Shown: in pieces, positions 4,588-40,127 of the stretch | Position numbering within the stretch: position 1 is the first letter of the stretch | Layout of the letters: the number at the start of each line of letters is the position of its first letter | DNA from: a virus | Lineage: Duplodnaviria > Heunggongvirae > Uroviricota > Caudoviricetes | Strand: one strand, 5' to 3' | Virus record (IMG/VR): IMGVR_UViG_3300049215_000070 | DNA: 64,000 bases | The notes under the pieces: generated by a model | What the model was told of the DNA's origin: nothing | Database searches by the model: none | What the model saw: the letters and a program-made list of their open reading frames with translations, nothing else | Translations under genes and position numbers: made by a program

Positions 4588-4589
4588 CT

Positions 4590-11877: not shown

Positions 11878-12795
11878 ATGGCAGTCCCAATGCGCAGTAC
11901 AGACTTCCGCAACATCGTTGAGCCGATTCTCAACGAAGAGTTCGACGGAGTCTACGAGCAACGCGCCGACGAGTGGAACCAGGTATTCAAGCAGATTACC
12001 GGTATCCCCCGCTCATACCATGAAGAGCCTGTGCTGTTCGGCTTTAGCGCCGCGCCCTTGCTCCCCGACGGTCAGCCCGTCACCTACCAGGCTGGCGGAC
12101 AATTGTTCGTCTACCGGTACTTCTATCAGGTCTACGGCTTGGCGTTCGCGCTGACCAAGGTCCTCGTGGAAGACGGCGACCACATCCGCATCGGCCAGAC
12201 GTACTCGCGCCATCTCGCGCAGTCGCTGATCGAAACCAAAGAGACGCTCTGCGCCAACGTGATCAACCGCGCTTTCAACAGCTCGTTTGTCGGCGGCGAT
12301 GGTGTCTCGCTCATTAACGCGGCTCACCCGATTCAGAACGCGGGAAGCTTCAGCAACATCCTGGGCACGGCGGCTGCGCTGTCTCAGACGTCGCTTGAGC
12401 AGATCCTGATTCAGATTCGCGGCGCGGTTGACAATAACGGTAAGAAAATCCGCCTGGAGCCGAAGAAGCTCGTGGTGGCCCCGTCGAACGTGTTCCAAGC
12501 GGAAGTGCTCCTAAAGAGCGTGCTCCGTACCGGCACCACGAACAATGACATTAACCCGATCAAGTCCATGGGCTTGCTCAGCGGTGGTCAAGCGAACCTG
12601 TCGCGTCTGACCAGCAACACGGCCTGGTTCGTCCAGACCGACGCCCCCGAGGGCTTGAAGCTGGTGAATCGTCGGTCCTTGCAAAAAAGCATGGAGGGGG
12701 ATTTTGAAACGGATTCAATACGTTACAAAGCAACGGAGCGCTATGCCGTCGGCTTCACGGACCCTCGATGTCTTTTCGGTACGCCTGGGTTATGA
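11878..12795 (+). CDS. major capsid protein (HK97 fold)
   Basis: AAGGAG RBS. 305 aa. Sequence character typical of HK97-fold major capsid proteins. Position after the scaffold. Followed by a strong terminator. Confidence 0.75.
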   Translation: MAVPMRSTDFRNIVEPILNEEFDGVYEQRADEWNQVFKQITGIPRSYHEEPVLFGFSAAPLLPDGQPVTYQAGGQLFVYRYFYQVYGLAFALTKVLVEDGDHIRIGQTYSRHLAQSLIETKETLCANVINRAFNSSFVGGDGVSLINAAHPIQNAGSFSNILGTAAALSQTSLEQILIQIRGAVDNNGKKIRLEPKKLVVAPSNVFQAEVLLKSVLRTGTTNNDINPIKSMGLLSGGQANLSRLTSNTAWFVQTDAPEGLKLVNRRSLQKSMEGDFETDSIRYKATERYAVGFTDPRCLFGTPGL

Positions 12796-12840: not shown

Positions 12841-12876
12841 AGACTCTCTTCTGGAGTAATAACCAGGAGAGAGTCT
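12841..12876 (+). promoter_or_regulatory. RBS-sequestering hairpin in front of the endonuclease VII gene
   Basis: AGACTCTCTTCTGG agtaataa CCAGGAGAGAGTCT: 14-bp stem with one mismatch. The 3' arm contains the AGGAGA RBS and abuts the TTG start at 12876. Confidence 0.5.
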
Positions 12877-13364
12877 TGAAACTCTGTACAATCGATGGGT
12901 GCGGCAACAAGCACCAAGCCAAAGGCATGTGTAACAAGCACTACATGCGCCAATGGTATCTCGATCACCCTGAAGGCAAGATTGCCGCCAAGGTGAGAAT
13001 GAGTCAGGTTCCGCGTGCGATAATGCGGGACAGGGCGCTGCGATACGCTTACGGGGTTGACTCGAAGTGGTACGCAGAGCAACTGGCAAAACAGAACGGC
13101 GTGTGCGCCATCTGTCACAAGCCAGAAACGAAGTTCATGAAGGGCACGCTAATGCGGCTCGCAGTGGACCACTGCCACGACACCGGCAAGGTGCGCGGCC
13201 TCTTATGCCAGGCGTGCAATCGCGGCATAGGCTGTTTCAATCATGACCCGATGTTGCTACGCAGCGCCATCGAGTATCTTTCACCTACGGTCAGCCCAAC
13301 ACCGACCCCTGAAGGCTGGCCTCTGATCCGCTGCCGGGGTAGCGCCTCTACGACACACGCCTGA
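12876..13364 (+). CDS. endonuclease VII-type HNH (homing) endonuclease
   Basis: AVDHCHDTGKVRGLLCQACNRGIG motif. N-terminal CxxC...C..H Zn motif. TTG start with AGGAGA RBS. Confidence 0.8.
   Translation: MKLCTIDGCGNKHQAKGMCNKHYMRQWYLDHPEGKIAAKVRMSQVPRAIMRDRALRYAYGVDSKWYAEQLAKQNGVCAICHKPETKFMKGTLMRLAVDHCHDTGKVRGLLCQACNRGIGCFNHDPMLLRSAIEYLSPTVSPTPTPEGWPLIRCRGSASTTHA
13289..13315 (+). repeat. 27-bp direct repeat, copy A (GTCAGCCCAACACCGACCCCTGAAGGC)
   Basis: Matches 13440..13466 with one mismatch. Lies inside the 3' end of the endonuclease VII ORF. Confidence 0.8.
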
Positions 13365-13498: not shown

Positions 13499-14743
13499 AT
13501 GCGTACATCCCTATCCGGTCCTGTAATCCTTTACGGGAACGACAATCCCCAGCAGATCAGCGAAACTGACTCTGGTCCGAACATCGACTACCAGGCCAAT
13601 GCCGTACTCGACTCTCGCTACGTTTCGCAGGTAACTGCGGCTGGCGAAGGAGCACAAGCAGGCATCCTTTGCTGGTCAAACCCTGTTGAGATGGAGCTTC
13701 TGAGCTACGTCCCGGCAGCGGCCAACGCCGCCAACATCGCCGCCGCTCAGTCGCCGACAGTGGGCGGATTCTTCACGCTCGCGACAAGCAGCACCAACGC
13801 AGTCTGCGCGAACATCCCGCTGGTCCCTCAAGGTACCGCGATTCAGCCGACGGCGACCACAATCCCTGTCCTGGCTTTGGACTTTGGCTTTGCTCAGGTC
13901 ACCACGACCACGGCGGCGGGCACGGCGAACATTCTCACGATTACTGGTCCTTCTCCGACCGGTTACACCTCGACCGCCACCTACGGTTCGCGTTTTTTCT
14001 ACCCGGGTCAGCGCATCCTGGTAGGCGGCGCGGGCAACGCCGCGGGCACGGTTCCGCTGTCCACCATCGTTCTAGCGACCGACCGTTACGCAGCCCCGGG
14101 CTACGCGGTGCAGGCCGCTGGCACGGTACTGATTGCAAACAACGCGCTCTTCGCGGGCACCAACCTTCCGGTCGGCACCAGCGATCAAGAGTACGGCGTC
14201 GCCGTCAAGCCGGTCGTCAAAGCTGGCGCGGCTCGCGTCTATGATCCGGCGCAGATGGGCACACGTCAGGTTATCGTCACCGCATCCGGCGCCTCCACGG
14301 GCACTGTTACCATTCGCGGTTACGACATATACGAGCAGCCGATGTCTGAAACACAGACCATTGTCGGCTCGGGTGTGACGGTTCCGAAAAAGGCTTTCGG
14401 CTACGTCTCCAGCGTCCAGCTGAACGTTGGCTCGACGCTGACGGGCACGCTTTCGGTGGGAACAAACAGCACCATCGGTCTACCGATCCGTGTTGACGAG
14501 TTTGAGTACGCCGGGATATTCGTCAGCGGCGCTCAGATTTTTTCAGCAACCGGACTCACGTTTGCCGACCAAACCCCGACGGCCACCTCTACCACGGGCG
14601 ACGTGCGTGGAACCTACACGATGCAGACGGCGCCGAACGGCACCACGAACCGTGTGGTGCTCTTCTACCAGAAGCCCATCGCGACAGCCAAGGTATCCAG
14701 CAACATCGACTTCCGTGGCTTCACGGGCGTCACCAACGCTTAA
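13499..14743 (+). CDS. virion structural protein (414 aa, Thr/Ala/Gly-rich)
   Basis: Large ORF in the structural block. No specific motif. Confidence 0.55.
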   Translation: MRTSLSGPVILYGNDNPQQISETDSGPNIDYQANAVLDSRYVSQVTAAGEGAQAGILCWSNPVEMELLSYVPAAANAANIAAAQSPTVGGFFTLATSSTNAVCANIPLVPQGTAIQPTATTIPVLALDFGFAQVTTTTAAGTANILTITGPSPTGYTSTATYGSRFFYPGQRILVGGAGNAAGTVPLSTIVLATDRYAAPGYAVQAAGTVLIANNALFAGTNLPVGTSDQEYGVAVKPVVKAGAARVYDPAQMGTRQVIVTASGASTGTVTIRGYDIYEQPMSETQTIVGSGVTVPKKAFGYVSSVQLNVGSTLTGTLSVGTNSTIGLPIRVDEFEYAGIFVSGAQIFSATGLTFADQTPTATSTTGDVRGTYTMQTAPNGTTNRVVLFYQKPIATAKVSSNIDFRGFTGVTNA

Positions 14744-14915: not shown

Positions 14916-15263
14916 GTGAAGCTTACCCAGAACAGCTACGTCATCACTGGGGTAGGCAACTCCCCGCTGATACCTCTCGACACGCACGTCAACCCGGTCG
15001 AGGTGTTTGGCTCGATCATCGACGGTGGCGCTTCTACGTATGCGGTTCATTACACCACCGCTGATGTATTTGCGCCAGGATACAGCGCAGCGGCTGATGC
15101 GATTCTTAACTCAAGCACCATCCCTACCGGGCCGACGACCGGCAGCAAGCCGTTCAATTTCAGCGCCGCTGGCGCCACCGCGATCCAACTCCAGGTCACC
15201 GTAGGTCCCGCAACGGTCACGCTTGGCCCAGTATTCCAGTCTGACAACACTTTGGGCGCATAA
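14916..15263 (+). CDS. small structural protein (115 aa)
   Basis: GTG start 3 nt after the upstream stop. Thr/Gly/Ala-rich. Confidence 0.45.
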   Translation: MKLTQNSYVITGVGNSPLIPLDTHVNPVEVFGSIIDGGASTYAVHYTTADVFAPGYSAAADAILNSSTIPTGPTTGSKPFNFSAAGATAIQLQVTVGPATVTLGPVFQSDNTLGA

Positions 15264-15298: not shown

Positions 15299-15736
15299 AT
15301 GCCAAAAGCCAAGGATGCGTCAAAGAGATTTTTCACCGGGGTACCATGTAAGCATGGTCACATATCGGAGCGATGGACCAACAATGGACGTTGCATCGAA
15401 TGCCGGATGAATTATCAGGGAACCAGGAAAGACTACTATCGGCGCAAGGGTCGAGAGGCTTACTGGAATGATCCAGACAGAAAACAAAAAACCCTGGACA
15501 ACACCAGGAAGCAGCGCGGACTACCACAGCCGGAAAGACCGCCGCCAGCACACTGCGAATTGTGCGGCAAAAAATCAACCAGGAATTTATGCCTGGATCA
15601 CGACCACCAAAACGGCAGGTTTCGCGGCTGGCTATGCGGCAATTGCAATAGCGGTCTCGGTAAGCTTGGCGACACATCGGAAGCACTAATGAAAGCACTC
15701 GCTTACTTGGACAGGGCGTCACAGTCATGGCGGTGA
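15299..15736 (+). CDS. endonuclease VII-type HNH (homing) endonuclease, second copy
   Basis: LCLDHDHQNGRFRGWLCGNCNSGLGKLGD plus N-terminal C..H...C..C Zn motif. Lower GC than its flanks. Confidence 0.8.
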   Translation: MPKAKDASKRFFTGVPCKHGHISERWTNNGRCIECRMNYQGTRKDYYRRKGREAYWNDPDRKQKTLDNTRKQRGLPQPERPPPAHCELCGKKSTRNLCLDHDHQNGRFRGWLCGNCNSGLGKLGDTSEALMKALAYLDRASQSWR

Positions 15737-16968
15737 CCTATGTGAAAGACTTCTCCTTCCCCTCCGACTTTGGATTTTCCAAGAACGGCAGCGCTAGCGT
15801 CCCAGGAAAAGCCAAAGGGGGCCGCGCAACGACCCCACAAGCTTACCGCGAGGGCGGCAAGGTCCAGCCTGCGCAGTCGAAGTACTCCGGTCACGTCGCC
15901 AAGTCTGACGCCAAGCCGATGTCGGGTGCCGGGGCCAAGAATCTCTCCTACGGCAAAGCTTCGATGCCCGCCAAGACCACGATGGAAAAGAGCAGCGGCA
16001 TGCAGTCCCCGGCATTCAAGTCGGGCGGCAAGGCAGAGCGCAATGCGTCGATGATGAAGTCGCACATGGCGCGCCGCGCGAACGGTGGCGCGGCAACTGC
16101 CGAAGCCCCGGTTCCCATGGGCAAGAAATCCAGCTGGAACAAAGACGACGCCGTCAGCCCGGGAAGCTTCAAACGCACCCCGCCGAAGCAAGGCGCCAAG
16201 AACCCTGAATCCGCACGCGACAAGTTCGCCGCGAAGACCGCAGAGCCTGCCACCAAGCAAGAGGGCGACGTTGAGCGCATGAGCGGCTGGTCCGACTTCA
16301 AGAAGGGCGGCAAGGTAACGAAAAAGAAAATGGGCGGCGGTGTTCAAGACCGTTACGAGTCCAGCGACGGCTCAGGCTCTATGTCCAAGGACAAGACCGG
16401 CACCTCGAAGAAGATCAAAGGCACCCCAGCGTACAATTCGGGTGGTCGCATCAAGAGCATGGGCAAGTACGCGCACGGCGGCAAGGTCTGGAAAGACGGC
16501 AGTACTCAGAAACCCGGCGGCGACGCCAAGTACGAAAAGGCCGCGGGAACTCCGAAGCGGGACCACTTGTCGACCAAGGGCGAAGTCGAATCCGGCAAAG
16601 CAACCGGCAAGAGCACCGCACCCGCGCAGGGCGAGAAGCGCATGGCCCAAGGTGGCCTAAGCCGCGCCACCAGCCCGAAGCGAAACGCCGCGATTCACGC
16701 GAAGTCTCGCAAAGTATCTCCTGGCGCCTCGCTGGGCGCATTGGCGAGCGTTCTGGGCGGCGCGGGCGTACCGCATCAGCCGAGCGCACCGGGCATGGGT
16801 CCGTCGCCTCCTGGGATGGCACCTGGGATGGCACCTGGGATGGGTTCCCCTCCGGGTGGGCAAATGGGTGCAATGCGGCCTCAGGCGCCTGGCCCTGGCG
16901 CTCCTGCGATGGCTGGCGGTGGTTCCGTAAAACATGTAATGGTTCACCATATCTCGTACAAGAAGTAA
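15727..16968 (+). CDS. lysine-rich, highly basic low-complexity virion protein with ~8 GG[KR][VA] motifs and a Pro/Gly/Met-rich C-terminus
   Basis: 413 aa. Contains REGGKVQ, KSGGKAE, KKGGKVT, NSGGRIK, AHGGKVW, PGMAPGMAPGMG. No enzymatic motif. Confidence 0.6.
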   Translation: MAVTYVKDFSFPSDFGFSKNGSASVPGKAKGGRATTPQAYREGGKVQPAQSKYSGHVAKSDAKPMSGAGAKNLSYGKASMPAKTTMEKSSGMQSPAFKSGGKAERNASMMKSHMARRANGGAATAEAPVPMGKKSSWNKDDAVSPGSFKRTPPKQGAKNPESARDKFAAKTAEPATKQEGDVERMSGWSDFKKGGKVTKKKMGGGVQDRYESSDGSGSMSKDKTGTSKKIKGTPAYNSGGRIKSMGKYAHGGKVWKDGSTQKPGGDAKYEKAAGTPKRDHLSTKGEVESGKATGKSTAPAQGEKRMAQGGLSRATSPKRNAAIHAKSRKVSPGASLGALASVLGGAGVPHQPSAPGMGPSPPGMAPGMAPGMGSPPGGQMGAMRPQAPGPGAPAMAGGGSVKHVMVHHISYKK

Positions 16969-17038: not shown

Positions 17039-18094
17039 ATGGCGTCTACCAATCAGGGCACGGTCAACCCGCTACTCACGACCGGCACCTACAACAACAT
17101 AGCGATTGACAACCGCACGTTCATTGACCGTGTGTACGGCGCGTTGAAGCTGCGCCCGCAGCAGATCACCGCCGAGATGATTTTGATTGGCCTGGACATG
17201 ATAAACCTCGTGCAGCTCGACATGCTGAACGACGCCGCGCCGCTTTGGACCCTTCGCAAGTACATCCAGCCCCTGTACCAGGGTCAGCAGCAGTACGTGC
17301 TCCCGCCGAGCACAAACGACGTCACGAAGGCGTTTTACCGGACGATGTCGAACCTGACCAGCTCCGCGACAATCACAAACTCGACCGCGTACTACCAGTG
17401 GAGCTTCACGCAGCCTACGCAGGTCACCACAATCAATCTGAACTGGCCGTCCGCGAGCTTCCCGGTGCAGTACCAGTACAGCCTTGACAACGTCAACTGG
17501 AGCACCGCGGCAAACTCAAGCAGCACTCACAACGGCATTGTTGGGTACAGCGCGCAAGACATCGACAACGCCAGCGCGTACCAGTACTGGCGCGTCATCC
17601 CGGCCACCAGCCAAAACGGGGTGCCGATTACGGTGCCCAATACTTTGCCGCTGACGCTGAGCGGGCAGGTGTACAATACCCCTGCGGACATAGAAATGTA
17701 CCGCATGAACCGGGACGATTACTGGAACCTGACCAACAAGACCTTCCAGGGGAGACCGCTGCAGTGGTGGATGGATCGTCAAATATACCCGCAGATGGAT
17801 CTCTGGCCCGCGCCAGACGCCACCGCGGCTCAGAATTTCATGGTGGTCTGGCGGCAGCGCATGATCGCCGACGCAGGCAGCCTGCAGAACACGCTAGAGA
17901 TCCCGCCGCGCTGGTACCTGGCGTTTTTTTATCGTGTCGCCGCCGAGCTGGCTTTTTGCACACCAGAGGTTGACCCCGAGGTCACCGGGCAGATTCAGGC
18001 CAAGTCGGATGCTCACTGGAAACGCGCCTGGGGTGAGGAGCGCGACAAGTCCCCAATCAAGTTCCAGACGCAGATCGGGGTTTATACTCGATGA
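17039..18094 (+). CDS. virion or tail structural protein (351 aa)
   Basis: ORF in the structural block. Asn/Thr/Gln-rich. Confidence 0.5.
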   Translation: MASTNQGTVNPLLTTGTYNNIAIDNRTFIDRVYGALKLRPQQITAEMILIGLDMINLVQLDMLNDAAPLWTLRKYIQPLYQGQQQYVLPPSTNDVTKAFYRTMSNLTSSATITNSTAYYQWSFTQPTQVTTINLNWPSASFPVQYQYSLDNVNWSTAANSSSTHNGIVGYSAQDIDNASAYQYWRVIPATSQNGVPITVPNTLPLTLSGQVYNTPADIEMYRMNRDDYWNLTNKTFQGRPLQWWMDRQIYPQMDLWPAPDATAAQNFMVVWRQRMIADAGSLQNTLEIPPRWYLAFFYRVAAELAFCTPEVDPEVTGQIQAKSDAHWKRAWGEERDKSPIKFQTQIGVYTR

Positions 18095-18809: not shown

Positions 18810-19754
18810 ATGCGCAGTCTCGGAAACGGCATTAGAAACTTTTACGGTCAGCTGACCATAAACGCGGCCTCAGGTGAGGCTTCCGGCGGACTTATTGTCA
18901 ATGCAATCGCAGCCTTGAACGTACCCGCAGTTACGATCAACGGATCAAGTACCGCAGGACAGTCAAATGGTTTATTTGTGCTTGCTGGAGCTAACTCCGC
19001 AGACAGATCTTTAGATGTGCTAAATTCTGCTGGTTCATCGCGATTGTTTGGTATATTTGGCGACGGTCATTTCGCGCTCGGCTACAACGGCACGGCAAAC
19101 GTAATCACCGGAACGGCGGCGGGCAACATCACGATCAACGCACCGAGCAGCGGAACAGCACTTGTGACGACTGCCGGGACCGGCGGGTACGCGATTCAAG
19201 GTACCGGCGCCACCGGGGCAATTACCGCGCTATTTACTGGCGCATCAGGAGACGCGGGCAGACTGGCGGTGCAAGACGGCCAGTCCGGAAACCGCGCCTG
19301 GGAAATGCGTTCGGGCGGTGTCTCGGTGGGTGTTTTCGATATCTACGACCTGACGGCGGCAACCTCGCGGTTGCAGATCGACACATCAGGCAATGTCAGC
19401 GTGCCGAATGGCACCGGGTCGCTTAGCCCGGTCTATGCTGGCATCCCGGTTAACACGCAGGCTGGTAGCTACACGACGGTATTGTCTGATGCCAACAAAT
19501 GCATCAAGTTTACCGGCGCGTCCGCAGGCACGCTCACTATTGCCGCAAACTCCAGCGTCGCTTACCCGGTAGGCACGGCGATCACGTTCGTCAACAGAAC
19601 CACCAATACCTTGACCATATCAATCAACAGCGACTCCCTTGTGTATTCAAACACGGGCGCTGTCGGATCCAGAACGCTGGGCACTAACGCGATGGCAACG
19701 GCAATCAAGACCGACGCGACCATTTGGCTCATATCTGGTGCGGGTATCTCGTAA
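18810..19754 (+). CDS. tail fibre or tail spike-like protein (314 aa, Gly/Thr/Ala/Ser-rich)
   Basis: Composition and repeats of the TGTAAGNITINA type, typical of fibre shafts. Confidence 0.5.
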   Translation: MRSLGNGIRNFYGQLTINAASGEASGGLIVNAIAALNVPAVTINGSSTAGQSNGLFVLAGANSADRSLDVLNSAGSSRLFGIFGDGHFALGYNGTANVITGTAAGNITINAPSSGTALVTTAGTGGYAIQGTGATGAITALFTGASGDAGRLAVQDGQSGNRAWEMRSGGVSVGVFDIYDLTAATSRLQIDTSGNVSVPNGTGSLSPVYAGIPVNTQAGSYTTVLSDANKCIKFTGASAGTLTIAANSSVAYPVGTAITFVNRTTNTLTISINSDSLVYSNTGAVGSRTLGTNAMATAIKTDATIWLISGAGIS

Positions 19755-20329
19755 TGGGCATTCAGCAAATGCTGCTGGCGGCTGGCGGATTCGTCCCGGT
19801 CACGCGCACGTACACCACCGGAAATTCAGCAACTGAAACCCCTCCGGTCGGCGCAACGCATGTGCAAATTTCAGCGTGGGGTGGTGGCGGAAGCGGAGCG
19901 TACAATTCCGGAGCATACACGTATGGCGGCGGCGGCGGCGCTTACGTTCAAACCGCAGTTATATCGCTTTCCGGCATATCCACATTTACATACACAGTCG
20001 GCGTAGGTAGCACTACCCCAGGAACTAGTCCGCAAAACGGTACTGCAGGCACGGCTACCAGTTGCACAGCTACTGGTGTTTCGATTTCCGCAGGCGCTGG
20101 TAGCGGCGGAAATTACGCTGGGCCAGGAGGCTCAGGCGGCACAGGCAGCGGCGGAACAATCAACGCATCAGGAAGCGCAGGATCTAACGGTGGTGTTGGC
20201 GGCAACAACGGACAAGGCGTAAACGGCGGCAACCAGTTACCCGGAACCGCGCCTGGTGGCGGCGGCGGAACAAGTACCAGTCAGGGATATGCGGGCGCTG
20301 CTGGTCAAATTAGTTTTGCTTACACTTAA
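19754..20329 (+). CDS. glycine-rich fibre or collar-like protein
   Basis: TAATG coupling. Poly-Gly tracts GGGGSGAYNSGAYTYGGGGGAY. Confidence 0.45.
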   Translation: MGIQQMLLAAGGFVPVTRTYTTGNSATETPPVGATHVQISAWGGGGSGAYNSGAYTYGGGGGAYVQTAVISLSGISTFTYTVGVGSTTPGTSPQNGTAGTATSCTATGVSISAGAGSGGNYAGPGGSGGTGSGGTINASGSAGSNGGVGGNNGQGVNGGNQLPGTAPGGGGGTSTSQGYAGAAGQISFAYT

Positions 20330-20813: not shown

Positions 20814-20814
20814 T

Positions 20815-27807: not shown

Positions 27808-29265
27808 ATGTCGAAACTCAGAGAAATCTACAAGGGCTCATTCAAAGGGCGTCGTAACAAGCACGACGTGGTAACGGCGTACGACGGCGGATACATGGAT
27901 TTTTCCACGTCCTCTTTCGATCCGAGCACGGTTGTTCCCACGGCGGTTGACACCGGGTACGGCAGCGGCTACAACCCCAGCACCGACCCCAATGTCGCCG
28001 GTTACACGGGATCACAAGACAGCAGCCTTGCGGCGCCCGCGGCCACGGGGCTGGATCAAAATTACCTGTCGACAATCAACGCCGAGCTTGCCGCCGACCC
28101 TACCGGAGAAAACGCCGCCGCCAGTTTTGATAGCAGCAAATCAAAATCTGGCTCATCTTCTGGCTCATCTGCCGCGTCAAGCGCCGCAGGTGGTGCGCTT
28201 GGTACGCTACTCAAGGCGCTGGGTCTTGGGAGCGGAAACACCAGCGCGCAAGGTATCACCGCGCTGGCCGGGCTGCTCTCTGCCGCTGGGCAGTACAAGC
28301 AAAACTCCGCGTACGCGCCGACGTTTGCGCCGCCCGCGTTATTTGGCGGGACCTCAGGGACCACATCCGGCAACACCGCAGGCATCGCGTCGACCGGGTA
28401 CGGACCCGCTGGCGGCTACAACTACGCCAACTACAAAGGCCTGGTAGCGGGCGCCCCCGGGCTGGGTTACGCGCCGCAGACCGCGACCACGCCCACGATC
28501 CCAAATTACTACACCTACGGTCAGGGTCCGCAGCAGAGCTTTTTCACCACGACGCCGTCGAGCGCCACGCAGCCCACCGCAATGAAAAAAGGCGGCAAGG
28601 TCAGCACGCCGCAGCGTTTTGCCATGGGCGGGTTCAACACCGGCATGATGCCGCCCGTCCACCCCAACATGGGCACGATCACCCCCAGTATGGGGGTGCC
28701 TAGCGCCAATCCAATGGCGGGCGGTATTACGACCAGCGGCCCGTCAAACCCGACCGGCACGCCATCCTTTGGCGCAATGCCCGCGCAACGCGGCGCGCAA
28801 GTGCGCCCGGCGGTCCCGGCCACAATGCCTCCGCAGCAGACCCACACGCAGCCCATGCCGGGTCGAGCCTTTGCGAATGGCGGCAGCGCCGCGCCTCAAG
28901 CGTCGTCCTCGTCGTTTACCAGCCAGGTGCCTCAAAACCTGTCTGGGGTGCTCTCAGGGATGCGCAAAGCCTCTACCCCTAGTCACGCACCCCCGCTGGC
29001 TACGGGCGGCGCCTTGGCCTCCGTAAGCCGTCACGTCAAGGGTCCGGGGGATGGTACTAATGACAAAATTCCGGCACGCCTATCGCCCGGAGAATTCGTA
29101 ATTTCTGCGGATGTTGTAAGCGGCATCGGTAATGGTGACAATGGTGCAGGCGCCAGAAAACTCGATGCGTTTATGAAAAACGTCAGGAAGCACAAAGCAG
29201 AAAATGGATCTAAGGGTAAATTGCCAGCCAATGCTAGGCCAGTGGCAAGTTATCTAGGGAAGTAG
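27808..29265 (+). CDS. internal virion (ejection) protein, paralogous to upstream gene
   Basis: Shares NYYTYGQGPQQSFF. Contains KKGGKVS and FANGGSA motifs. Confidence 0.5.
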   Translation: MSKLREIYKGSFKGRRNKHDVVTAYDGGYMDFSTSSFDPSTVVPTAVDTGYGSGYNPSTDPNVAGYTGSQDSSLAAPAATGLDQNYLSTINAELAADPTGENAAASFDSSKSKSGSSSGSSAASSAAGGALGTLLKALGLGSGNTSAQGITALAGLLSAAGQYKQNSAYAPTFAPPALFGGTSGTTSGNTAGIASTGYGPAGGYNYANYKGLVAGAPGLGYAPQTATTPTIPNYYTYGQGPQQSFFTTTPSSATQPTAMKKGGKVSTPQRFAMGGFNTGMMPPVHPNMGTITPSMGVPSANPMAGGITTSGPSNPTGTPSFGAMPAQRGAQVRPAVPATMPPQQTHTQPMPGRAFANGGSAAPQASSSSFTSQVPQNLSGVLSGMRKASTPSHAPPLATGGALASVSRHVKGPGDGTNDKIPARLSPGEFVISADVVSGIGNGDNGAGARKLDAFMKNVRKHKAENGSKGKLPANARPVASYLGK

Positions 29266-34909: not shown

Positions 34910-36040
34910 ATGTCAAACACACCCGATGAACGTTCAGTCAAGATCGCTAAACTCCACGCCAAGGGCCTTTCCCAAAGGGAAATAGCCAAAAAACTCGGCA
35001 TCGCGCAAAGCACCGTCTCGGAGCGCCTCAAAAAAGTAGGCGGCTCATTCCCCGCACCAGACGGGCATTACGTCAAAGCAACCTCCACCCTTTACAGCCC
35101 AGACGGCGAGATCAAGCTTCAGTGGGTGAAATCTAGCCTAGATGAAGAGGCGCGTCAAGCAGCAGAGAAGGCCGCATTTGCGGCACTGTGCGAGACGCTG
35201 CCACGGTATGTGCCGACCAACGGCCCCGGGCACACCGACGCGGAGCTTGCGAACCTGTACGTGTTTACAGATTGTCACGTAGGCATGCTGGCATGGGGCA
35301 AGGAAACCGGGGACGACTGGGACACGGGAATCGCTGAGCGCACGCTGATTCGAACTTTCGAGGCAATGATCGCGGGCAGCCCCAAGGCGCGGGTTGCTAT
35401 AATTGGGCAGATGGGGGATTTTTTGCATTTTGACGGTTTACTGGCCGTTACCCCCACATCCAAGCACGTACTTGACGCCGACAGCCGATTCTCAAAAATT
35501 GTCAAGATCGCGATACGGGTGCTGCGGTACATCATCGACATGGCGCTTCTCAATCACGAGGAGGTCCACGTCGTCATGGCGGACGCGAATCACGACCCGG
35601 CGAGCCAGGTTTGGCTGCGGCACATGTTCACCGCGCTGTACGAGAACGAGCCGCGCGTCAAGGTCAACGACAGCGAAAAGCCTTTCTATGCGTACCAGCA
35701 CGGCGAAACCATGATCGGGTTTCACCACGGGCACACGCTGAAAAAAGAAAAGCTCCCGCTGCTGCTTGCCACGCTGTACCCCAAGATGTGGGGCAACACG
35801 CTCAAGCGATACTGCCACACCGGTCATCTGCACACGGTGGACGAGGTCGAGGCCAACGGCATGAAGATCGTGCAGCATCCCACTATTGCCGCCAAGGACG
35901 CGTACGCGGTTCGTAACGGCTGGGTAAGTCAGCGACAAGCATCATGCATTACCTATCACCAGTCTTATGGCGAAGTCGGTCGCACCGTCGTCTGCCCCGA
36001 GATGTTCGAGACAATTAATGGACCCACAAACCCTCATTGA
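34910..36040 (+). CDS. HTH (sigma70 region-4/LuxR-like) fused to a calcineurin-like metallophosphoesterase domain
   Basis: GLSQREIAKKLGIAQSTVSERLKK helix-turn-helix. Phosphoesterase motifs DCHVG, GDFLHFDG, ANHD, HHGH, GHLH in canonical order. Confidence 0.6.
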   Translation: MSNTPDERSVKIAKLHAKGLSQREIAKKLGIAQSTVSERLKKVGGSFPAPDGHYVKATSTLYSPDGEIKLQWVKSSLDEEARQAAEKAAFAALCETLPRYVPTNGPGHTDAELANLYVFTDCHVGMLAWGKETGDDWDTGIAERTLIRTFEAMIAGSPKARVAIIGQMGDFLHFDGLLAVTPTSKHVLDADSRFSKIVKIAIRVLRYIIDMALLNHEEVHVVMADANHDPASQVWLRHMFTALYENEPRVKVNDSEKPFYAYQHGETMIGFHHGHTLKKEKLPLLLATLYPKMWGNTLKRYCHTGHLHTVDEVEANGMKIVQHPTIAAKDAYAVRNGWVSQRQASCITYHQSYGEVGRTVVCPEMFETINGPTNPH

Positions 36041-39000
36041 CAAATACCGCGGCGTTCTTGGGCTTACCGGGCACGCCGCTCAGTCCACCGCAGCGAACAT
36101 CGCGGGCGGACTTGTGGGCCTTGGAAACCTTCCCAGAGGCATAGACGCCGCTGAGTCTGCCCGTCAGCTGATTACCGACAAGCTTTCCCCAGGAGAACCC
36201 GACTCGCAAACCATTGGCCTGATACGGGACATCGCCCCGGCCTACCTGGCCGCGGCGCGCAGCCCGGTCGCCAAGGCGGCGCACGCCGTCGGGGACGCGT
36301 ACGACAAAAGCGTCGACACCTACGCCGACTTAGCGTCGCGCTACCTGGGCGCCCCGGCTGGGGGTGAGGTGGCCGCATTGGGCGCCGCGCTGCCAAACGC
36401 CGCCTTTCCTGAATCAAAAGCCGCCAAAGCCACCGAGTACGCCGCCCCCGCCGCCGAATTGCTGAGCAAGTACCCGGCGACCCCGGTGCTGCCAGACGGC
36501 TCGACCCTGCGCACGCTGGCCCGTGAGGGCGCCGCAAACGCCCGCAGAGCCGACGAAGGCTTACCCCCTCCCGATGTGCTCGCAAGCGATTTCGCAGGCA
36601 GGCAGGCCGCGCACGAGGGCGCCGTGGCGCAACGTAACGCGGACCCGGCGTACATCAAGGCCAAGGTACCGGCCACGAGCGTAGACCCGTCATTGTACCC
36701 ATCTAGTTTTAGCCCGCCGGACAACGCGGAGGCGTACGTCGCCATGGATCCGCAAACCGGGCAGCACATCGGGCATGTGACGTTCGTCAAGCGCGGTGAC
36801 GGCGTATCCAGCTTGCGCATGGACGTCGCCCCCACTTATCAGGGGCAGGGCATCGGCAGCGACTTGCTGAATGACGCCATTGCAAACGCGCACGACCAGG
36901 GCCTGCCGTACCGGTCAGACACTCAGGTAAGTGTTCCGGCAGCCAAAACTTACAGCAAGCTTCCCGGGGCGATCCGCAACGAGGACGTGGATCACATGAT
37001 TGACCCGAATGACGGTCACGTCGGGGTATCCAGCAACGGTCGCGCGGTGTTTGAGATTCCGCCGAGTGCGGATGCGGACGACGCGACACCGGACGAGATG
37101 CCGCACTTCAACCCGAACAGCTACATCGGCAGCCAGGCGTACGCCGAGGGCGGTGAGGTTGCGCCTGCATTGGGGGACATTGGCGACCTGATTGCGCGCT
37201 ACGCAACCAAACCGCTGCCCGGGTTACCTGCCAAGGTGCAGGTGCCGGGAGTTGGCGGACTAGAGGTTGGTCCAAACCCCAAAATCCGCCAGGTAGCGCA
37301 AAATTACATGGACGAGGTCGGAATCAAAAACCCGCCTCAGCCCATTTACGCCAAGGCCGACCCGGTGCGCGGTAAAGCGATTGCCGCCGCCTACGACGCC
37401 GCGCAGCACAACCCCAGCGACCCGGACGTCAAGGCCTCGTACGACGCGCTTATCAAGGAAACCTTGGCGCAGTATCAGCACATCAAAAACGCAGGACTTA
37501 AGGTAGATCTTATTCAGCCCGGTCAGGCTGACCCGTACGCCGCCTCGCCGCGACTCGCGGTAGAGGATATCAACCGCAACAACCACATGTGGGTATTCCC
37601 GACGTCAAGCGGATTCGGTACCGAGGGCGCGGCGCCGATGGATCACCCACTGCTGGCGGATAGCGGCGAAACAATTAGCGGGCAACCCGCAACCGCGAAC
37701 GACATTTTTCGGGTAGTTCACGATTATTTTGGGCACGCCAAGGAAGGAGTCGGATTTCGCGCCGATGGCGAAGAGAACGCCTGGAATCAGCACGCGCGCA
37801 TGTACTCGGATCTAGCCAAACCGGCGATGACCGCAGAGACGCGCGGGCAGAACAGCTGGGTGAACTTTGGTCCTCACGCCGACGCGAACAAAGGCGCGAG
37901 CGCCGCCAGCACCGTGTACGCACCGCAGAAGGCTGTCATTTTGCCGGATGTTTACAATGATCCCGACGCCGGACGGACGATGGATTTTTTGCACATGTCC
38001 AACCTGACAGACCCGCAGGTTACGCTTGACCCTGCGGCGTACGGCACAGGCATGAAAGGCGCTGAGGCGCGCAGGGGCGGAACCAAAACCATCAGCCTGT
38101 ACCCTGCGAACATAGACCCCAAGGATATCGAGCTGCCGCTGCAAGGAAAAACACCGTACCGTGTCTCGGTTCCCGCGAGCCAGATGTACGACATGTCGAA
38201 CGATCCGCTAGGATACCGCTCGATAACGCCCAGCTACAGCGACGCCGAGGACGCCATCAGGGGTGCGGGATGGGCCGGGTATTACACACCGGATCACGAA
38301 GACCCAAGACAGCGCGGGCAGGCGCGGCTGTTTGTGCCGACGACCGCGACACGCCTTGACCCCATTGACGCGCCCGGGCCAACGAAAGCCGCCGCAGCGA
38401 AAAGCAGCGGCTTGTACGACGACACACTGGACACCTCAGATTTCTCTACCGGTGGCCTGGTTCAAAAATACGCCGACGGAGGTGAGGCAGCGGTCGCGCT
38501 CGATGATGTCGCAAACCTTATCGCCAAGTACGGCAAAGATGCCGCCCCAGCGCAAGCGGAGCATCTCGCGAATGCGGTCTCCGAGAACGGCTCCGCTACC
38601 TACAACCCAACCACCGGAGACGTCCACAGCAGCGGCTACGCCGTTCCGCACGATATTAGCCGCAGTGTCGCCCTAGACGCGCCGCCTACCGCGGGCGACA
38701 TCCATGACTTCATGCTGCAAAACCAGGACGCATTCGACAACCCGAAGGCGGCAGTTCACGTCGAGAGCGACGGTAACGGCAATCACTTCATCCACGTCGC
38801 TCACGTCGAGCCAGATTTTGATAGCGCAATGGCTGCCGCCAAGGCATTCGACGCGCCGGGAGTACGCGAGCTTCATACTGGCAACAATTTTCCTGCTGAT
38901 GGTCCCGCCGGGATCAGCGATGATGCGGATACGGGGATAGAGGATTACTTGGCGGGATCAAAGATACCAGAGACAAACCTACCGGCGGAACTGGACACAG

Positions 39001-40127
39001 AGCGCAATCAGAGACCAAGGACGGCGTGGAAATATGGGAAGCCAACGGTTGATCCTGCGCAACGGGTGGCTTTTCCGGGGATCTACAATGATCCTCGTCA
39101 GGTGATTCAGGATGCGAATTCAATGGTTGGTCCAGAAGAACCTCTGCTTGAGAGATTATTCGGCGTAAATCGTCAAGATCTATCCGACATCGCATTAGGT
39201 CGGCAAGGAAACGAAATCGGGACTCTTCCTGGGGCAAAGCCTGGATCGACTGGAGCCGCCTCAGCGCGAGCAGTAATGACTCCGCAGAACGAGCAGCGTC
39301 TGATAGACGTTCTGAACGAAGCTCGTGGAACGCCGTTACACACGGGTATGACTGGTTGGTATTCAATGGACCCTCTCTATGAAAGATTTAGGCAAATATT
39401 TGGTGACGAGGACGCGCCAGCTAAGTACCAGCAATTCAATACTCTTTCTGGAATGGCGTCTCCGGGGTCAGACGTGGGAACTGAGATTGCGCGGGGGACA
39501 TCTGCAAATTGGCTGCAAAACCAGGGACGCTTTGCTGATTTCCTAAAGTACTCTGGGGTTGCAAACGATGAGCGGGCAGGGATTCGCGATTACCCTCAGG
39601 ATATTCTCGATGTTCCTGGGCATGCGTACCACAAGACGGCGCATGCTCTGCCAATGAGCCAGTACCTGTCTTCTGGTGAGATCCAGATGAAGTCCCCGAA
39701 GGTTCCAATGTACATTGGGGCATCAGGGGTACCAGAGACTGGATTTCAATCAGATATGCCAGTAGGCGACGCCCACTGGGCGCGCGGAGTAGGTCTAGCC
39801 GATACCCGGAACCCTCGCACTTTGAAAGGAGAAAGCATCGTCCCGGGTTCGTCGGCATCGACTCCAGAAATGCAGACACTTGGTCCTTGGTGGCGAGATC
39901 GGGTGGCAGCTCAAGCCGGATATGGAGCCGTTCCAGCTCAGGCGACCGCTTGGGGGGTTTTCGCGCCGTATACAGGCGTAACATCCAACATAGGGGCGCC
40001 GAAACTAGAGATACTATCGACTCAGATAGGAAAACTAGCCCAACGGCTAGGGGTATCACCAGAAACAGCCAGGGATCTTGTGATCCAGGGTAAAGCAGGG
40101 GCGTACTCATCAGGAGGCTCCGTCTAG
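36018..40127 (+). CDS. giant virion protein (1369 aa) containing a GNAT acetyltransferase motif and an internal duplicated YA(D/E)GGE(V/A)..L.D...LIA(R/K)Y segment
   Basis: VAPTYQGQGIGSDLLNDAI is GNAT motif A (about 36820-36880). Duplicated segments at about 37139 and about 38469. First ATG at 36018. The ORF extends upstream to 35967 with no ATG. Confidence 0.6.
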   Translation: MDPQTLIDKYRGVLGLTGHAAQSTAANIAGGLVGLGNLPRGIDAAESARQLITDKLSPGEPDSQTIGLIRDIAPAYLAAARSPVAKAAHAVGDAYDKSVDTYADLASRYLGAPAGGEVAALGAALPNAAFPESKAAKATEYAAPAAELLSKYPATPVLPDGSTLRTLAREGAANARRADEGLPPPDVLASDFAGRQAAHEGAVAQRNADPAYIKAKVPATSVDPSLYPSSFSPPDNAEAYVAMDPQTGQHIGHVTFVKRGDGVSSLRMDVAPTYQGQGIGSDLLNDAIANAHDQGLPYRSDTQVSVPAAKTYSKLPGAIRNEDVDHMIDPNDGHVGVSSNGRAVFEIPPSADADDATPDEMPHFNPNSYIGSQAYAEGGEVAPALGDIGDLIARYATKPLPGLPAKVQVPGVGGLEVGPNPKIRQVAQNYMDEVGIKNPPQPIYAKADPVRGKAIAAAYDAAQHNPSDPDVKASYDALIKETLAQYQHIKNAGLKVDLIQPGQADPYAASPRLAVEDINRNNHMWVFPTSSGFGTEGAAPMDHPLLADSGETISGQPATANDIFRVVHDYFGHAKEGVGFRADGEENAWNQHARMYSDLAKPAMTAETRGQNSWVNFGPHADANKGASAASTVYAPQKAVILPDVYNDPDAGRTMDFLHMSNLTDPQVTLDPAAYGTGMKGAEARRGGTKTISLYPANIDPKDIELPLQGKTPYRVSVPASQMYDMSNDPLGYRSITPSYSDAEDAIRGAGWAGYYTPDHEDPRQRGQARLFVPTTATRLDPIDAPGPTKAAAAKSSGLYDDTLDTSDFSTGGLVQKYADGGEAAVALDDVANLIAKYGKDAAPAQAEHLANAVSENGSATYNPTTGDVHSSGYAVPHDISRSVALDAPPTAGDIHDFMLQNQDAFDNPKAAVHVESDGNGNHFIHVAHVEPDFDSAMAAAKAFDAPGVRELHTGNNFPADGPAGISDDADTGIEDYLAGSKIPETNLPAELDTERNQRPRTAWKYGKPTVDPAQRVAFPGIYNDPRQVIQDANSMVGPEEPLLERLFGVNRQDLSDIALGRQGNEIGTLPGAKPGSTGAASARAVMTPQNEQRLIDVLNEARGTPLHTGMTGWYSMDPLYERFRQIFGDEDAPAKYQQFNTLSGMASPGSDVGTEIARGTSANWLQNQGRFADFLKYSGVANDERAGIRDYPQDILDVPGHAYHKTAHALPMSQYLSSGEIQMKSPKVPMYIGASGVPETGFQSDMPVGDAHWARGVGLADTRNPRTLKGESIVPGSSASTPEMQTLGPWWRDRVAAQAGYGAVPAQATAWGVFAPYTGVTSNIGAPKLEILSTQIGKLAQRLGVSPETARDLVIQGKAGAYSSGGSV

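What the first reader, a model, noticed from the sequence alone, without database searches (positions are those of the whole stretch)
15727..16968. Extremely basic Lys/Gly-rich 413-aa protein in the structural block: candidate packaged DNA-binding or histone-like protein
The protein is low-complexity, about 20% Lys, with GG(K/R)V repeats and a PGMAPGMAPGMG tail. It has no enzymatic motif and is co-transcribed with structural genes. It could be a DNA-condensing protein co-injected with the genome, which might protect it or silence it early.
Basis: inference. Interest (0 to 1): 0.5.

Follow-up and report, generated by a model that had tools for sequence, protein, structure and literature searches.

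The report
Disordered lysine-rich phage head-module protein
This is a real but unnamed phage gene for a long, floppy, positively charged protein that most likely travels inside the virus head alongside the DNA, and it founds a fast-evolving family known only from environmental sequences.

Summary
The ORF at 15727-16968 (+) is a genuine gene: 413 aa, pI 10.3, net charge +42, dN/dS about 0.2. Lys is 12.8%, not about 20%. AlphaFold2 finds no fold (pLDDT 47), and Pfam, PHROGs and PDB sequences give no match.

It belongs to a family seen only in uncultured phage contigs. In all 41 viral loci examined the gene holds one slot, between the major capsid gene and a 351-aa SU10-type adaptor paralog.

Across the superfamily three things persist:
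- an N-terminal signature, (V/I)xYVxDFxFP;
- several copies of a short motif, [YFM]-x-x-G-G-x-[V/I/A] (5-8 per protein versus about 0.5 expected);
- a motif copy near the C-terminus.

Linkers and inserted modules vary freely.

The same motif occurs in the phage's putative internal/ejection proteins and at the C-terminal module of siphovirus tape-measure proteins. Caulobacter phages with a 79%-identical capsid protein lack the gene, so it is accessory.

Best reading (confidence about 0.45): an accessory internal head protein anchored by its N-terminus and the motifs, whose lysine-rich body lies on the packaged DNA and leaves with it. It is not homologous to any histone-like family. Virion location and DNA binding are untested.

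The parts
15727..16968 (+). Gene for the 413-aa basic, disordered protein (the finding)
   Evidence: ORF and translation. Composition. dN/dS 0.21-0.28. 81 homologs. AF2 mean pLDDT 47, pTM 0.15.
15727..15780 (+). N-terminal signature MAVTYVKDFSFPSDFGFS (aa 1-18). This is the only segment kept across the whole superfamily.
   Evidence: Invariant Y5, V6, F9, F11 in alignment A1. Distant relatives match only this region. In 132 sequences chosen by a pattern fixing only Y, V and the first F, the second F is kept in 129 and P in 103.
15808..15864 (+). First GG units: KAKGGRATTPQAYREGGKV (aa 28-46). This is the family's 'GG-x-x-STPQ-x-Y-x-x-GG' unit, which varies in copy number among homologs.
   Evidence: Alignment A1. 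The same unit occurs in the protein at 27808-29265.
16015..16035 (+). Motif FKSGGKA (aa 97-103)
   Evidence: G100/G101 nearly invariant. Motif statistics.
16135..16317 (+). Best-conserved central block WNKDDAVSPGSFKRTPP...VERMSGWSDFKKGGKV (aa 137-197), ending in a motif
   Evidence: Invariant D141, S144, P145, G146, S147, K149, N159, F167, R184, M185, S189, D190, F191, G194, G195.
16432..16488 (+). Motifs YNSGGRI and YAHGGKV (aa 236-254; family consensus RIKNLGHYAHGGKV)
   Evidence: Y248, A249, H250, K253 nearly invariant..
16642..16701 (+). MAQGGLSRATSPKRNAAIHA (aa 306-325): a motif followed by the single SPKR and a conserved AAIHA
   Evidence: Invariant G309, G310, R313, A322, I323, H324, A325. 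SPKR at aa 316.
16717..16965 (+). Uncharged Gly/Pro/Met/Ala-rich C-terminal tail (aa 331-413). It includes PGMAPGMAPGMG (nt 16810-16845) and the terminal motif MAGGGSVKHVMVHHISYKK.
   Evidence: Charge profile. Tandem repeat. 80 of 81 family members have GG within their last 20 residues, and 63 of 81 have at least 3 His in the last 15.
17039..18094 (+). Invariant downstream neighbour: a 351-aa SU10-type adaptor paralog with an inserted F5/8-type-C (CBM32-like) domain
   Evidence: Lies next to the target in 37 of the 41 loci; the other four contigs end before this gene. Pfam on 26 family members: SU10_adaptor in 10, F5_F8_type_C in 11. AF2 pLDDT 83. Best PDB fold match is the cyanophage A4 portal-tail complex chain 9k09_d, followed by CBM32 modules.
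11878..12795 (+). Major capsid protein (context)
   Evidence: Pfam Phage_capsid_4 at 6.5e-11. 79% identical to the Caulobacter RW/RLK phage capsid protein.
27808..29265 (+). Second protein carrying the unit (MKKGGKVSTPQRFAMGG) and a motif joined to a tape-measure-type C-terminal domain (LATGGALASVSRHVKGPGDG..IPARLSPGEFVI). Putative internal/ejection protein.
   Evidence: hhalign, 18 columns, E 2.7e-4; PHROG tape-measure families.
35967..40127 (+). 1,386-aa protein with a GNAT domain and four motifs. It ends exactly in a motif (...AYSSGGSV-COOH).
   Evidence: Pfam Acetyltransf_7/1 at aa 253-332. Motif contexts.

Best explanation
The gene encodes an accessory internal head ('cargo') protein.

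**Proposed mechanism**
1. The protein is made with the head proteins.
2. It is taken into the procapsid through its conserved N-terminal strand-like signature (YVxDFxFP). Its scattered [Y/F/M]-x-x-G-G-x-[V/I/A] motifs act as short docking 'stickers' on a repeated structural partner.
3. Candidate partners are the inner capsid surface, the portal/core, or the other internal proteins that carry the same motif.
4. The roughly 330-residue disordered body is lysine-rich, with about +42 charge spread evenly. It lies among the packaged DNA, neutralising part of the phosphate charge and tethering DNA to protein.
5. Because it is unfolded and held by weak, multivalent lysine contacts, it can leave through the portal with the DNA at infection.
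6. Its fast-changing linkers and swapped-in modules suggest a host-facing role after entry, such as coating or protecting the incoming DNA or countering a defence.

**Shown here**
- The gene is real and under purifying selection.
- The protein is predicted to be disordered.
- The family, its fixed gene slot and its conserved motifs.
- Motif sharing with putative internal proteins and with tape-measure proteins.
- Dispensability in close relatives.

**Inferred**
- Virion location, DNA contact, ejection and host-facing function.
For: 1. Fixed place in the head-neck module. In all 41 viral loci, and in L003-L005, the gene lies after the capsid gene (and p414/p115 where present) and directly before the adaptor paralog p351 wherever the contig extends that far, on the same strand.
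2. Disorder and no domain.
3. The charge is a specific lysine excess: 12.8% against 4.0% for the rest of the proteome, with Arg unchanged. The whole family has median net charge +33 and pI of at least 9.6. In T4, only lysines of the internal proteins contact the DNA phosphates (PMC3012670).
4. Conserved N-terminus on a hypervariable body. Relatives whose capsid protein is still 75-81% identical keep only about 38 N-terminal residues. [quoted passage not shown]
5. Motif statistics. Tyr is 11.5-fold and Phe 7.4-fold enriched at -3 of GG, and Val and Ile more than 5-fold at +3. There are 5-8 full motifs per protein against about 0.5 expected.
6. The motif is shared with the large proteins encoded downstream of the tail genes: p526, p654, and p1386, which ends in it. 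It is also shared with RLK gp066c (ends YMDGGRV) and with the C-terminal module of the phi1026b tape-measure protein. Such proteins lie in, or pass through, the DNA channel.
7. Accessory status. The gene is absent from the syntenic slot of Caulobacter phage RLK although the capsid protein is 79% identical. It is absent from all deposited phage genomes and from 185,579 species-representative bacterial and archaeal genomes.
8. Functional analogue. The phiX174 J protein has a basic body that binds DNA, ends ...WYVGGQQF, and binds the capsid protein F.
Against: - There is no direct evidence that the protein is in virions or binds DNA.
- The N-terminal signature is not shared by any other protein of this phage. 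The only other hit is marginal: E 0.0025, on the protein that also carries the GG unit. In T4, by contrast, several packaged proteins carry the targeting sequence.
- No head protease was found, so a T4-style processing route is unsupported.
- The gene lies between the capsid and adaptor-like genes. Podovirus internal/ejection protein genes usually lie downstream of the tail genes.
- The downstream neighbour carries an outward-facing sugar-binding module, which could equally suggest an external location.
- The motif partner is unknown.
Confidence: 0.45

Rival explanations
1. Ejectosome or DNA-conduit helper. The protein would be internal and ejected, but its main job would not be DNA condensation. 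It would act like a tape-measure or ejection protein that leaves ahead of, or with, the DNA and helps it cross the envelope. The GG motifs would be the same assembly elements used by tape-measure proteins.
For: The [FYLM]xxGGx[VA] motif immediately precedes the conserved GPGxGxxDxIPAxLSxGEFV domain in the phi1026b tape-measure protein, RLK gp066c, a Pag-Yong1 protein and the window's p526. The same 18-residue unit is in p526. An unfolded protein can pass the portal channel.
Against: The target lacks the GPG...SDxIPA domain itself. It has no predicted transmembrane or hydrophobic segment (17% ILVFWYM). It is encoded away from the putative ejection-protein genes. Close relatives do without it, whereas a conduit component should be essential.
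Confidence: 0.15
2. External polycationic 'brush' or adhesin. The N-terminal strand would fix the protein to the outside of the capsid or neck, perhaps to the CBM-bearing adaptor paralog. The cationic disordered chain would help first contact with anionic polysaccharides on the host.
For: It is always encoded directly before a neck protein with a carbohydrate-binding insertion. Rapid sequence and module turnover is also typical of host-surface-facing proteins.
Against: A 400-residue unfolded Lys-rich chain would be highly protease-sensitive and would bind any polyanion, including free DNA. Known capsid decoration proteins are folded domains (general knowledge). The motif is shared with proteins that are internal (tape-measure proteins), not external.
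Confidence: 0.12
3. Polyprotein or assembly factor processed at the GG sites. The conserved x-x-G-G|x sites would be cleavage sites, as with adenovirus protease sites (M/I/L)XGG-X in core protein precursors. Cleavage would release small basic peptides that stay with the DNA. Alternatively the protein is a transient assembly chaperone absent from mature virions.
For: The conservation pattern fits spaced recognition sites: short motifs with invariant GG and free linkers. The resemblance to adenoviral, ASFV and poxviral GG-X/AG-X processing sites is from my own knowledge, not tested here.
Against: No protease of any class was detected among about 30 head, neck, tail and internal proteins scanned, nor by profiles of the three unassigned head genes. 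The hydrophobic residue sits at P5 rather than P4. The motif also occurs at extreme C-termini (p1386, RLK gp066c, distant slot proteins), where cleavage would release only one to three residues.
Confidence: 0.1
4. Head-completion or DNA-end protein. A few copies would sit in or on the portal channel, hold the last-packaged DNA end and protect it, in the manner of T4 gp2.
For: The gene lies at the head/neck boundary, next to adaptor-like genes. The protein is basic and flexible.
Against: Multivalent motifs and a 400-residue polycation seem excessive for an end-cap. The gene is dispensable in close relatives. There is no similarity to known head-completion proteins.
Confidence: 0.07

Closest known systems
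Bacteriophage T4 internal proteins IPI, IPII, IPIII
   Same: Accessory, packaged with the DNA and injected. Lysines contact the DNA phosphates. Across related phages they are highly diverse and keep only a short N-terminal targeting sequence (PMC3012670). The target shows the same logic of a conserved N-terminus on a variable, basic, lysine-rich body.
   Different: No sequence similarity (PHROGs). T4 internal proteins are small and IPI* is folded, whereas this protein is 413 aa and predicted disordered. The T4 signal is shared by several proteins and removed by the prohead protease. Here the signature is unique to this protein and no protease was found. The gene location also differs.
phiX174 DNA-binding protein J
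   Same: A basic Gly/Pro-rich body binds the genome. The protein binds the capsid protein F during packaging, and its glycines are mutation-intolerant. It ends ...LWYVGGQQF (sequence verified), which fits aromatic-x-x-GG.
   Different: J is 38 aa, Arg/Lys-mixed, from an ssDNA microvirus, with a single anchor. It has no homology to the target. That the C-terminal residues form the capsid anchor is my recollection of the literature, not tested here.
Podovirus ejection/internal virion proteins (T7 gp14-16, cyanophage A4 pre-ejectosome)
   Same: Packaged inside the head and ejected. In A4, DNA runs along a positively charged cleft of the ejection proteins (PMC12002296). The target shares its short motif with this phage's putative counterparts.
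   Different: Those proteins are folded and form an ordered core on the portal, and are encoded after the tail genes. The target is disordered, is encoded between the capsid and adaptor-like genes, and is absent from close relatives.
C-terminal module of siphovirus tape-measure proteins (e.g. Burkholderia phage phi1026b gp14)
   Same: Contains [L/F/Y]AxGGxV directly before GPGTxTSDSIPAxLSxGEFV. The same junction occurs in the window's p526 and its orthologs.
   Different: The target has only the first, short element, repeated many times. It does not have the GPG...SDSIPA domain.
Linker-histone H1 tails, bacterial H1-like tails and protamines
   Same: Basic, low-complexity and disordered. There is one SPKR (aa 316) and one TPKR (aa 275).
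   Different: No globular H1 domain. No array of S/TPKK or AKP/PAKK repeats. Arg is 3.9%, so it is not protamine-like. The conserved positions are aromatic/Gly motifs rather than basic repeats.
Adenovirus core protein precursors (pVII, pre-mu) and their protease sites
   Same: Basic DNA-associated virion proteins with X-X-G-G|X sites. This comparison is from my own knowledge.
   Different: No adenain-like or other protease was detected. The hydrophobic residue is one position further from the GG. There is no homology.

Membership tests
Histone-like / nucleoid-associated DNA-binding families (histone fold, HU/IHF, H-NS, H1 winged helix) | A recognisable DNA-binding domain or fold | tested here: not met
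   No Pfam family at E<=0.01. No PDB sequence relative even with the family profile. The AF2 model has no folded domain: mean pLDDT 47, no residue >=70.
H1-type / bacterial H1-like basic tails | Arrays of S/TPKK, AKP or PAKK-type basic repeats | tested here: not met
   Only SPKR (aa 316) and TPKR (aa 275). The repeated element is aromatic-x-x-GG-x-V.
Protamine-like proteins | Short and Arg-dominated | tested here: not met
   413 aa, Arg 3.9%, Lys 12.8%.
Any DNA-condensing virion protein (functional class) | Binds DNA and is present in virions | not testable with these tools
   Requires virion proteomics and binding assays. Only composition and gene position bear on it.
T4-type internal proteins | Sequence homology to IPI/IPII/IPIII | tested here: not met
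   No PHROG hit. No tblastn hit in 50,697 phage records.
T4-type internal proteins | Short conserved N-terminal targeting sequence on otherwise diverse bodies | tested here: met
   Distant relatives keep only about 38 N-terminal residues, in the same gene slot.
T4-type internal proteins | Targeting sequence shared by several packaged proteins and removed by a prohead protease | tested here: not met
   The N-terminal profile finds only the target in the six-frame translation; one marginal hit at E 0.0025. No protease found.
Scaffolding proteins | Helical, usually acidic, encoded just upstream of the capsid gene | tested here: not met
   pI 10.3, almost no predicted helix, and encoded downstream of the capsid gene. 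A separate acidic protein with weak helical-bundle matches (9591-10583) sits upstream.
KGG stress-repeat proteins (Pfam PF10685) | Match to the KGG repeat model | tested here: not met
   No Pfam hit at E<=0.01 for the target, nor at E<=1 for three homologs.
Tape-measure protein C-terminal module | [FYL]AxGGxV followed by GPGxGxSDxIPAxLSxGEFV | tested here: inconclusive
   The first element is present 6-8 times. The second element is absent from the target but present in p526 of the same phage.
Podovirus ejection proteins | Encoded downstream of the tail tube genes; homology to T7 gp14-16 or P22 gp7/16/20 | tested here: not met
   The gene is between the capsid and adaptor-like genes. No PHROG or Pfam match.
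Protease-processed core polyproteins (adenovirus/ASFV type) | A cognate virion protease and cleavage at GG|X | tested here: inconclusive
   No protease was detected among the structural proteins scanned, but not every gene was scanned. Cleavage itself cannot be tested here.

The most novel reading that the evidence does not exclude
The protein could be a reversible, histone-like charge switch for a phage genome. Its lysine-rich disordered body and aromatic-GG 'stickers' would form a condensate with the DNA and the other motif-bearing internal proteins inside the head. After ejection, the GNAT acetyltransferase domain of the 1,386-aa protein would neutralise its lysines and release the DNA for expression. 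That protein also carries the motif and ends in it, and it would meet acetyl-CoA only in the host cytoplasm.

Nothing here excludes this reading. The only support is that both genes occur in this genome and share the motif. A distant relative (Alcaligenes phage QDWS535) has a GNAT gene without this protein, so the link is not obligatory.
Probability: 0.05. Interest if true: 0.85.

Novelty: new variant of a known kind. Interest (0 to 1): 0.5.

Why it matters
Internal 'cargo' proteins of phage heads are well understood only in a few model phages. This family comes from a podovirus lineage whose capsid module is related to Caulobacter phages and, more distantly, to the HTVC023P-type pelagiphages. 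Those pelagiphages have been reported as the most abundant known marine viral group (bioRxiv 10.1101/2019.12.14.876532), and their structural proteins are largely unassigned.

If the reading is right, it offers three things:
- a large disordered polycation as a packaged genome companion;
- a short docking motif shared by internal proteins and tape-measure proteins, which could be a general handle for how such proteins are recruited;
- a hypervariable, module-swapping locus that may mark host-phage conflict.

The N-terminal signature could also be tested as a tag for loading foreign proteins into capsids, as was done with the T4 targeting sequence.

Tried and rejected
- **Near-identical DNA in deposited phages:** none.
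- **tblastn of the target and of the N-terminal consensus against 50,697 phage records:** none.
- **Pfam and PHROGs on the target:** none. Pfam on insert-bearing homologs: none. The 'DUF3008-like' insert I recalled from memory was not confirmed. The DUF6496 module was confirmed in distant slot proteins only.
- **PDB sequence search with the family profile:** none.
- **Family profile against Caulobacter phage RLK and MW202545 loci:** no homolog. MW202545 has a compositional and motif analogue without detectable homology.
- **Bacterial and archaeal genomes:** none.
- **Paralogy between the target and p526:** rejected. Only an 18-residue unit is shared.
- **Search for p526 relatives in viral contigs:** nothing.
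- **Hidden head protease:** profiles of p182, p218 and p330 against PDB sequences gave nothing useful.
- **A CTS-like signal shared with other proteins:** not found.
- **The ORF as an artefact of GC-rich sequence:** rejected by dN/dS, by the homologs and by the conserved start.
- **Collagen-like or beta-solenoid fibre:** rejected. There is no G-X-Y periodicity, motif spacing is irregular and AF2 gives no structure.
- **Literature searches for a described packaged basic disordered phage protein of this type:** found only general precedents.
- **Genome-length comparison between phages with and without the gene:** considered but not used, because contig ends and terminal redundancy are unknown.
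Full report
**1. The observation**

The ORF is real and sits exactly where stated. It runs 15727..16968 on the + strand, starts with ATG and encodes 413 aa.

Composition: G 15.5%, A 12.8%, K 12.8%, S 11.4%, P 8.2%, M 5.3%, R 3.9%, no Cys. pI is 10.3 and net charge is +42. Even so, Lys is 3.2-fold above the other 34 proteins of the window (4.0%), while Arg is not enriched (3.9% vs 4.1%).

There are six GG[KR] sites, three of them GGKV. PGMAPGMAPGMG lies at aa 362-373 and is encoded by a perfect 12-nt x 2.8 repeat at 16810-16843. The positive charge is spread evenly over aa 1-330. The last 80 or so residues are uncharged and rich in Gly, Pro, Met and Ala.

The gene is genuine. GC3 is 73% against 57% for the window. 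dN/dS is 0.21-0.28 against three relatives, compared with 0.15 for the neighbouring gene. The start 'MAV' is conserved in homologs. The gene overlaps the upstream gene by 10 nt and ends 70 nt before the next one, and the consensus scan found no + strand terminator-like site at either gene boundary. Co-transcription with the structural genes is therefore plausible.

**2. Genomic setting**

The window is one 58,993-bp genome unit plus a 5,007-bp wrap-around with 3 mismatches. No deposited phage is close at the DNA level.

The head module reads as follows:

| Window coordinates | Assignment |
|---|---|
| 2983-4587 | Terminase large subunit |
| 4963-7635 | Portal |
| 8091-8549 | GroES-like |
| 9591-10583, 10600-11148, 11209-11865 | Three unassigned genes; the first is acidic and gives weak helical-bundle matches |
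| 11878-12795 | Major capsid protein (Phage_capsid_4) |
| 13499-14743 | 414-aa protein, unassigned |
| 14916-15263 | 115-aa protein, unassigned |
| 15727-16968 | The target |
| 17039-18094 | 351-aa protein (see below) |
| 20749-21357 | GH108 lysis gene |
| 22221-22895 | Canonical SU10-type adaptor |

Tail genes and several large low-complexity proteins follow.

The 351-aa neighbour is an adaptor paralog with an inserted F5/8-type-C (CBM32-like) domain. In a Pfam scan of 26 family members, 10 matched SU10_adaptor and 11 matched F5_F8_type_C. Its AF2 model has pLDDT 83. The best PDB fold match is chain 9k09_d of the cyanophage A4 portal-tail complex, followed by CBM32 modules.

The capsid protein is 79% identical to that of Caulobacter phages RW, RLK, GB2A and KcrB. 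It is about 40% identical to those of the roseophages CRP-901/902, the pelagiphage HTVC023P and the Planktothrix phages. HTVC023P-type phages are podoviruses by electron microscopy with largely unassigned structural proteins (bioRxiv 10.1101/2019.12.14.876532).

**3. The family**

A search of 5.8 billion proteins found 81 homologs. All are metagenomic, unnamed and without Pfam domains. A profile search of 1.84 billion representatives found only 47 clusters. About 25 are full-length relatives, and the rest match mainly the N-terminal region. No relative exists in 185,579 species-representative bacterial and archaeal genomes or in 50,697 deposited phage genomes.

Alignment A1 shows short, positionally conserved islands separated by linkers of very different length:
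- MAVKYVxDFSFP..FGF
- AKGGH(V/A)STPQxYxxGG, in variable copy number
- EKSSGVQKPAFKxGG
- WNxDDAVSPGSFKRTPP...VERMSGxSDFKKGG
- RIKNLGHYAHGGKV
- MAMGGLSRGTSPKKNAAIHAK
- a Gly/Pro/Met tail ending MAxGGxVxHVxxHHVxH

AlphaFold2 with this alignment gives mean pLDDT 47 and pTM 0.15, with no residue at or above 70. The protein is best described as intrinsically disordered with embedded short linear motifs.

**4. The motif**

Taking all 1,133 GG dipeptides in the family, Tyr is 11.5-fold and Phe 7.4-fold enriched three residues before the GG. Val and Ile are more than 5-fold enriched at the second residue after it. Each protein has 5-8 full motifs against about 0.5 expected, and shuffles almost never reach that number (at most 1 of 2000). 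GG lies within the last 20 residues in 80 of 81 members.

**5. A conserved slot with a hypervariable occupant**

In all 41 viral-contig loci the gene lies in the same place. That place is after the capsid gene, with p414 and p115 between them where present, and directly before the p351 homolog wherever the contig extends that far (37 of 41). Three further contigs agree.

In the more distant phages the capsid protein is still 75-81% identical to the window's. p351 has fallen to about 31%, and the slot protein keeps only about 38 N-terminal residues.

The 36 distinct slot proteins are 197-554 aa, with net charge +18 to +53 and 8-16% Lys. All start with (V/I)xYVxDFxFP. Most of the distant ones end in ...MMKKGGKV(K/G)C. 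Between the ends they carry different, shuffled modules. One of these is DUF6496, a family of unknown function.

The uncultured phage MW202545 has a protein in the same block with no detectable homology but the same character. It is 449 aa with pI 10.1, charge +44 and at least nine motifs, such as LKKGGKV, YAKGGKV and FKKGGKV.

The Caulobacter phage RLK lacks any such gene in the slot. The protein is therefore accessory, not part of the essential capsid architecture.

**6. The motif elsewhere in the phage and beyond**

A six-frame count finds 29 motifs in 48,909 residues. They are concentrated in a few proteins:
- the target, with 6;
- the 1,386-aa GNAT-domain protein, with 4, which ends exactly in ...AYSSGGSV;
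- the protein at 27808-29265, with 3;
- the 654-aa protein, which has YADGGEV.

The protein at 27808-29265 contains MKKGGKVSTPQRFAMGG, the family's unit almost verbatim. The hhalign match covers 18 columns at E 2.7e-4, and there is no other similarity. It also contains LATGGALASVSRHVKGPGDG..IPARLSPGEFVI.

That C-terminal domain is shared with RLK gp066c (MARGGYAVKGPGTG...; the protein ends YMDGGRV) and with a Pag-Yong1 protein (YAEGGAL...GPGDG). It is also shared with true siphovirus tape-measure proteins such as phi1026b gp14 (HLATGGAVWGPGTSTSDSIPAQLSNGEFVV, plus FAAGGLV).

The short motif is therefore a recurrent element of proteins that lie in, or move through, the DNA channel.

**7. Interpretation**

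The conserved positions are aromatic, glycine and valine residues, not basic ones. That argues for specific docking rather than mere polycation behaviour. The basic character is conserved as composition and is lysine-specific.

The closest functional precedents are these:
- **phiX174 protein J.** It has a basic body, binds capsid protein F during packaging and has mutation-intolerant glycines. Its sequence ends WYVGGQQF.

I therefore favour an accessory internal head protein. It would be anchored by its N-terminal signature and the motifs, lie on the packaged DNA and leave with it.

As a scale, 60-415 copies would neutralise 2-15% of the DNA charge. The copy number is unknown.

The analogy with T4 is incomplete. 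The N-terminal signature is unique to this protein in the genome, and no head protease was detected.

**8. Rivals**

- **Conduit or tape-measure-like helper.** Same location, different job.
- **External cationic brush next to the CBM-bearing neck protein.**
- **Precursor cleaved at the GG sites.** No protease was found, and the motif also occurs at extreme C-termini.
- **DNA-end or head-completion protein.**

None is excluded. Each is listed with its evidence and refutation test in the rival explanations.

**9. Comparison with known families and verdict**

The protein is not a member of any histone-like, H1-like or protamine family, nor of the KGG-repeat, scaffolding, T4 internal-protein or known ejection-protein families (see the membership tests).

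It works most like a packaged internal protein, which is a known kind. It is an unfamiliar form of that kind: a large disordered lysine-rich chain, with a private N-terminal signature and a multivalent motif shared with tape-measure and internal proteins. I rate it a new variant of a known kind and of moderate interest.

All functional statements are inference. Virion proteomics with protease shaving would settle the main question.

Noticed in passing
window 1-5007 vs 58994-64000: The window wraps around. It is a 58,993-bp genome unit followed by 5,007 bp of the next copy, with 3 mismatches between the copies. An identical copy of the 351-aa protein is on a 106-kb contig, which suggests a concatemeric or circularly permuted assembly.
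   Followed up: partly
window 12876-13364 and 15299-15736 (+): Two Endonuclease VII (PF02945) genes are inserted in the head module, one after the capsid gene and one overlapping the target's start by 10 nt. Both positions are empty in related contigs (L004, L010 and others), so they look like mobile homing-endonuclease insertions.
   Followed up: partly
window 17039-18094 (+): A second SU10-type adaptor-like protein carries an inserted F5/8-type-C/CBM32 sugar-binding domain, in addition to the canonical adaptor at 22221-22895. A neck ring with carbohydrate-binding modules may act in host-surface recognition.
   Followed up: yes
window 35967-40127 (+): A 1,386-aa protein has a GNAT acetyltransferase domain (aa 253-332) and repeated YA(D/E)GGE(V/A)..AL.D..(D/N)LIA(K/R)Y units, and it ends in the motif AYSSGGSV. 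It may be a packaged enzyme. HTVC023P-type pelagiphages are reported to carry a lysine-acyltransferase (HlyC-like) gene.
   Followed up: partly
window 27808-29265 (+): A Ser/Ala/Gly/Thr/Pro-rich basic protein has a tape-measure-type C-terminal domain (GPGDGTNDKIPARLSPGEFVI) in what appears to be a podovirus genome. The domain is shared with Caulobacter phage RLK gp066c, Planktothrix phages and Burkholderia siphovirus tape-measure proteins.
   Followed up: partly
homologs P0005, P0006, P0009, P0022, P0026, P0040 and others: 32 of 81 family members carry a Cys motif, (H)AKGCxCKMCxGG (CxCxxC). 63 of 81 have a His-rich C-terminus, and distant slot proteins end in Cys. This may indicate metal binding or disulfide formation. 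The window's protein has no Cys.
   Followed up: no
L002:6314-7663 and L002:8468-8983 (MW202545): An uncultured relative has a non-homologous 449-aa protein of the same character (pI 10.1, charge +44, at least 9 motifs). It also has a 171-aa Lys-rich protein ending PFKKGGKVNW, whose N-terminus matches phrog_2423 (unknown function).
   Followed up: partly
L006:4902-5507 and L006:7840-8577 (Pelagibacter phage HTVC023P gp30, gp32): Two very basic Lys-rich proteins (201 aa with 19% Lys; 245 aa) flank the portal gene, with single FKAYNSGG and FKKG elements. They may be analogous cargo proteins in a cultured, very abundant marine phage.
   Followed up: no
window 8091-8549 (+): A GroES-like co-chaperonin lies within the head module. 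It is conserved across the whole phage group (HTVC023P, CRP-901, Pag-Yong1, QDWS535).
   Followed up: no
window 19724-20329 (+): A 201-aa protein with 27% Gly matches Pfam Gly_rich_2, between the neck-region genes and the lysis genes.
   Followed up: no
L041, L043 and other distant slot proteins: Distant slot proteins contain a DUF6496 module (KVMHEFKxGxLHSGSKKGPKVxNPKQAxAIALSEA), which also exists as small stand-alone bacterial proteins of unknown function. They also carry other shuffled Lys/Glu/Met-rich helical modules.
   Followed up: partly
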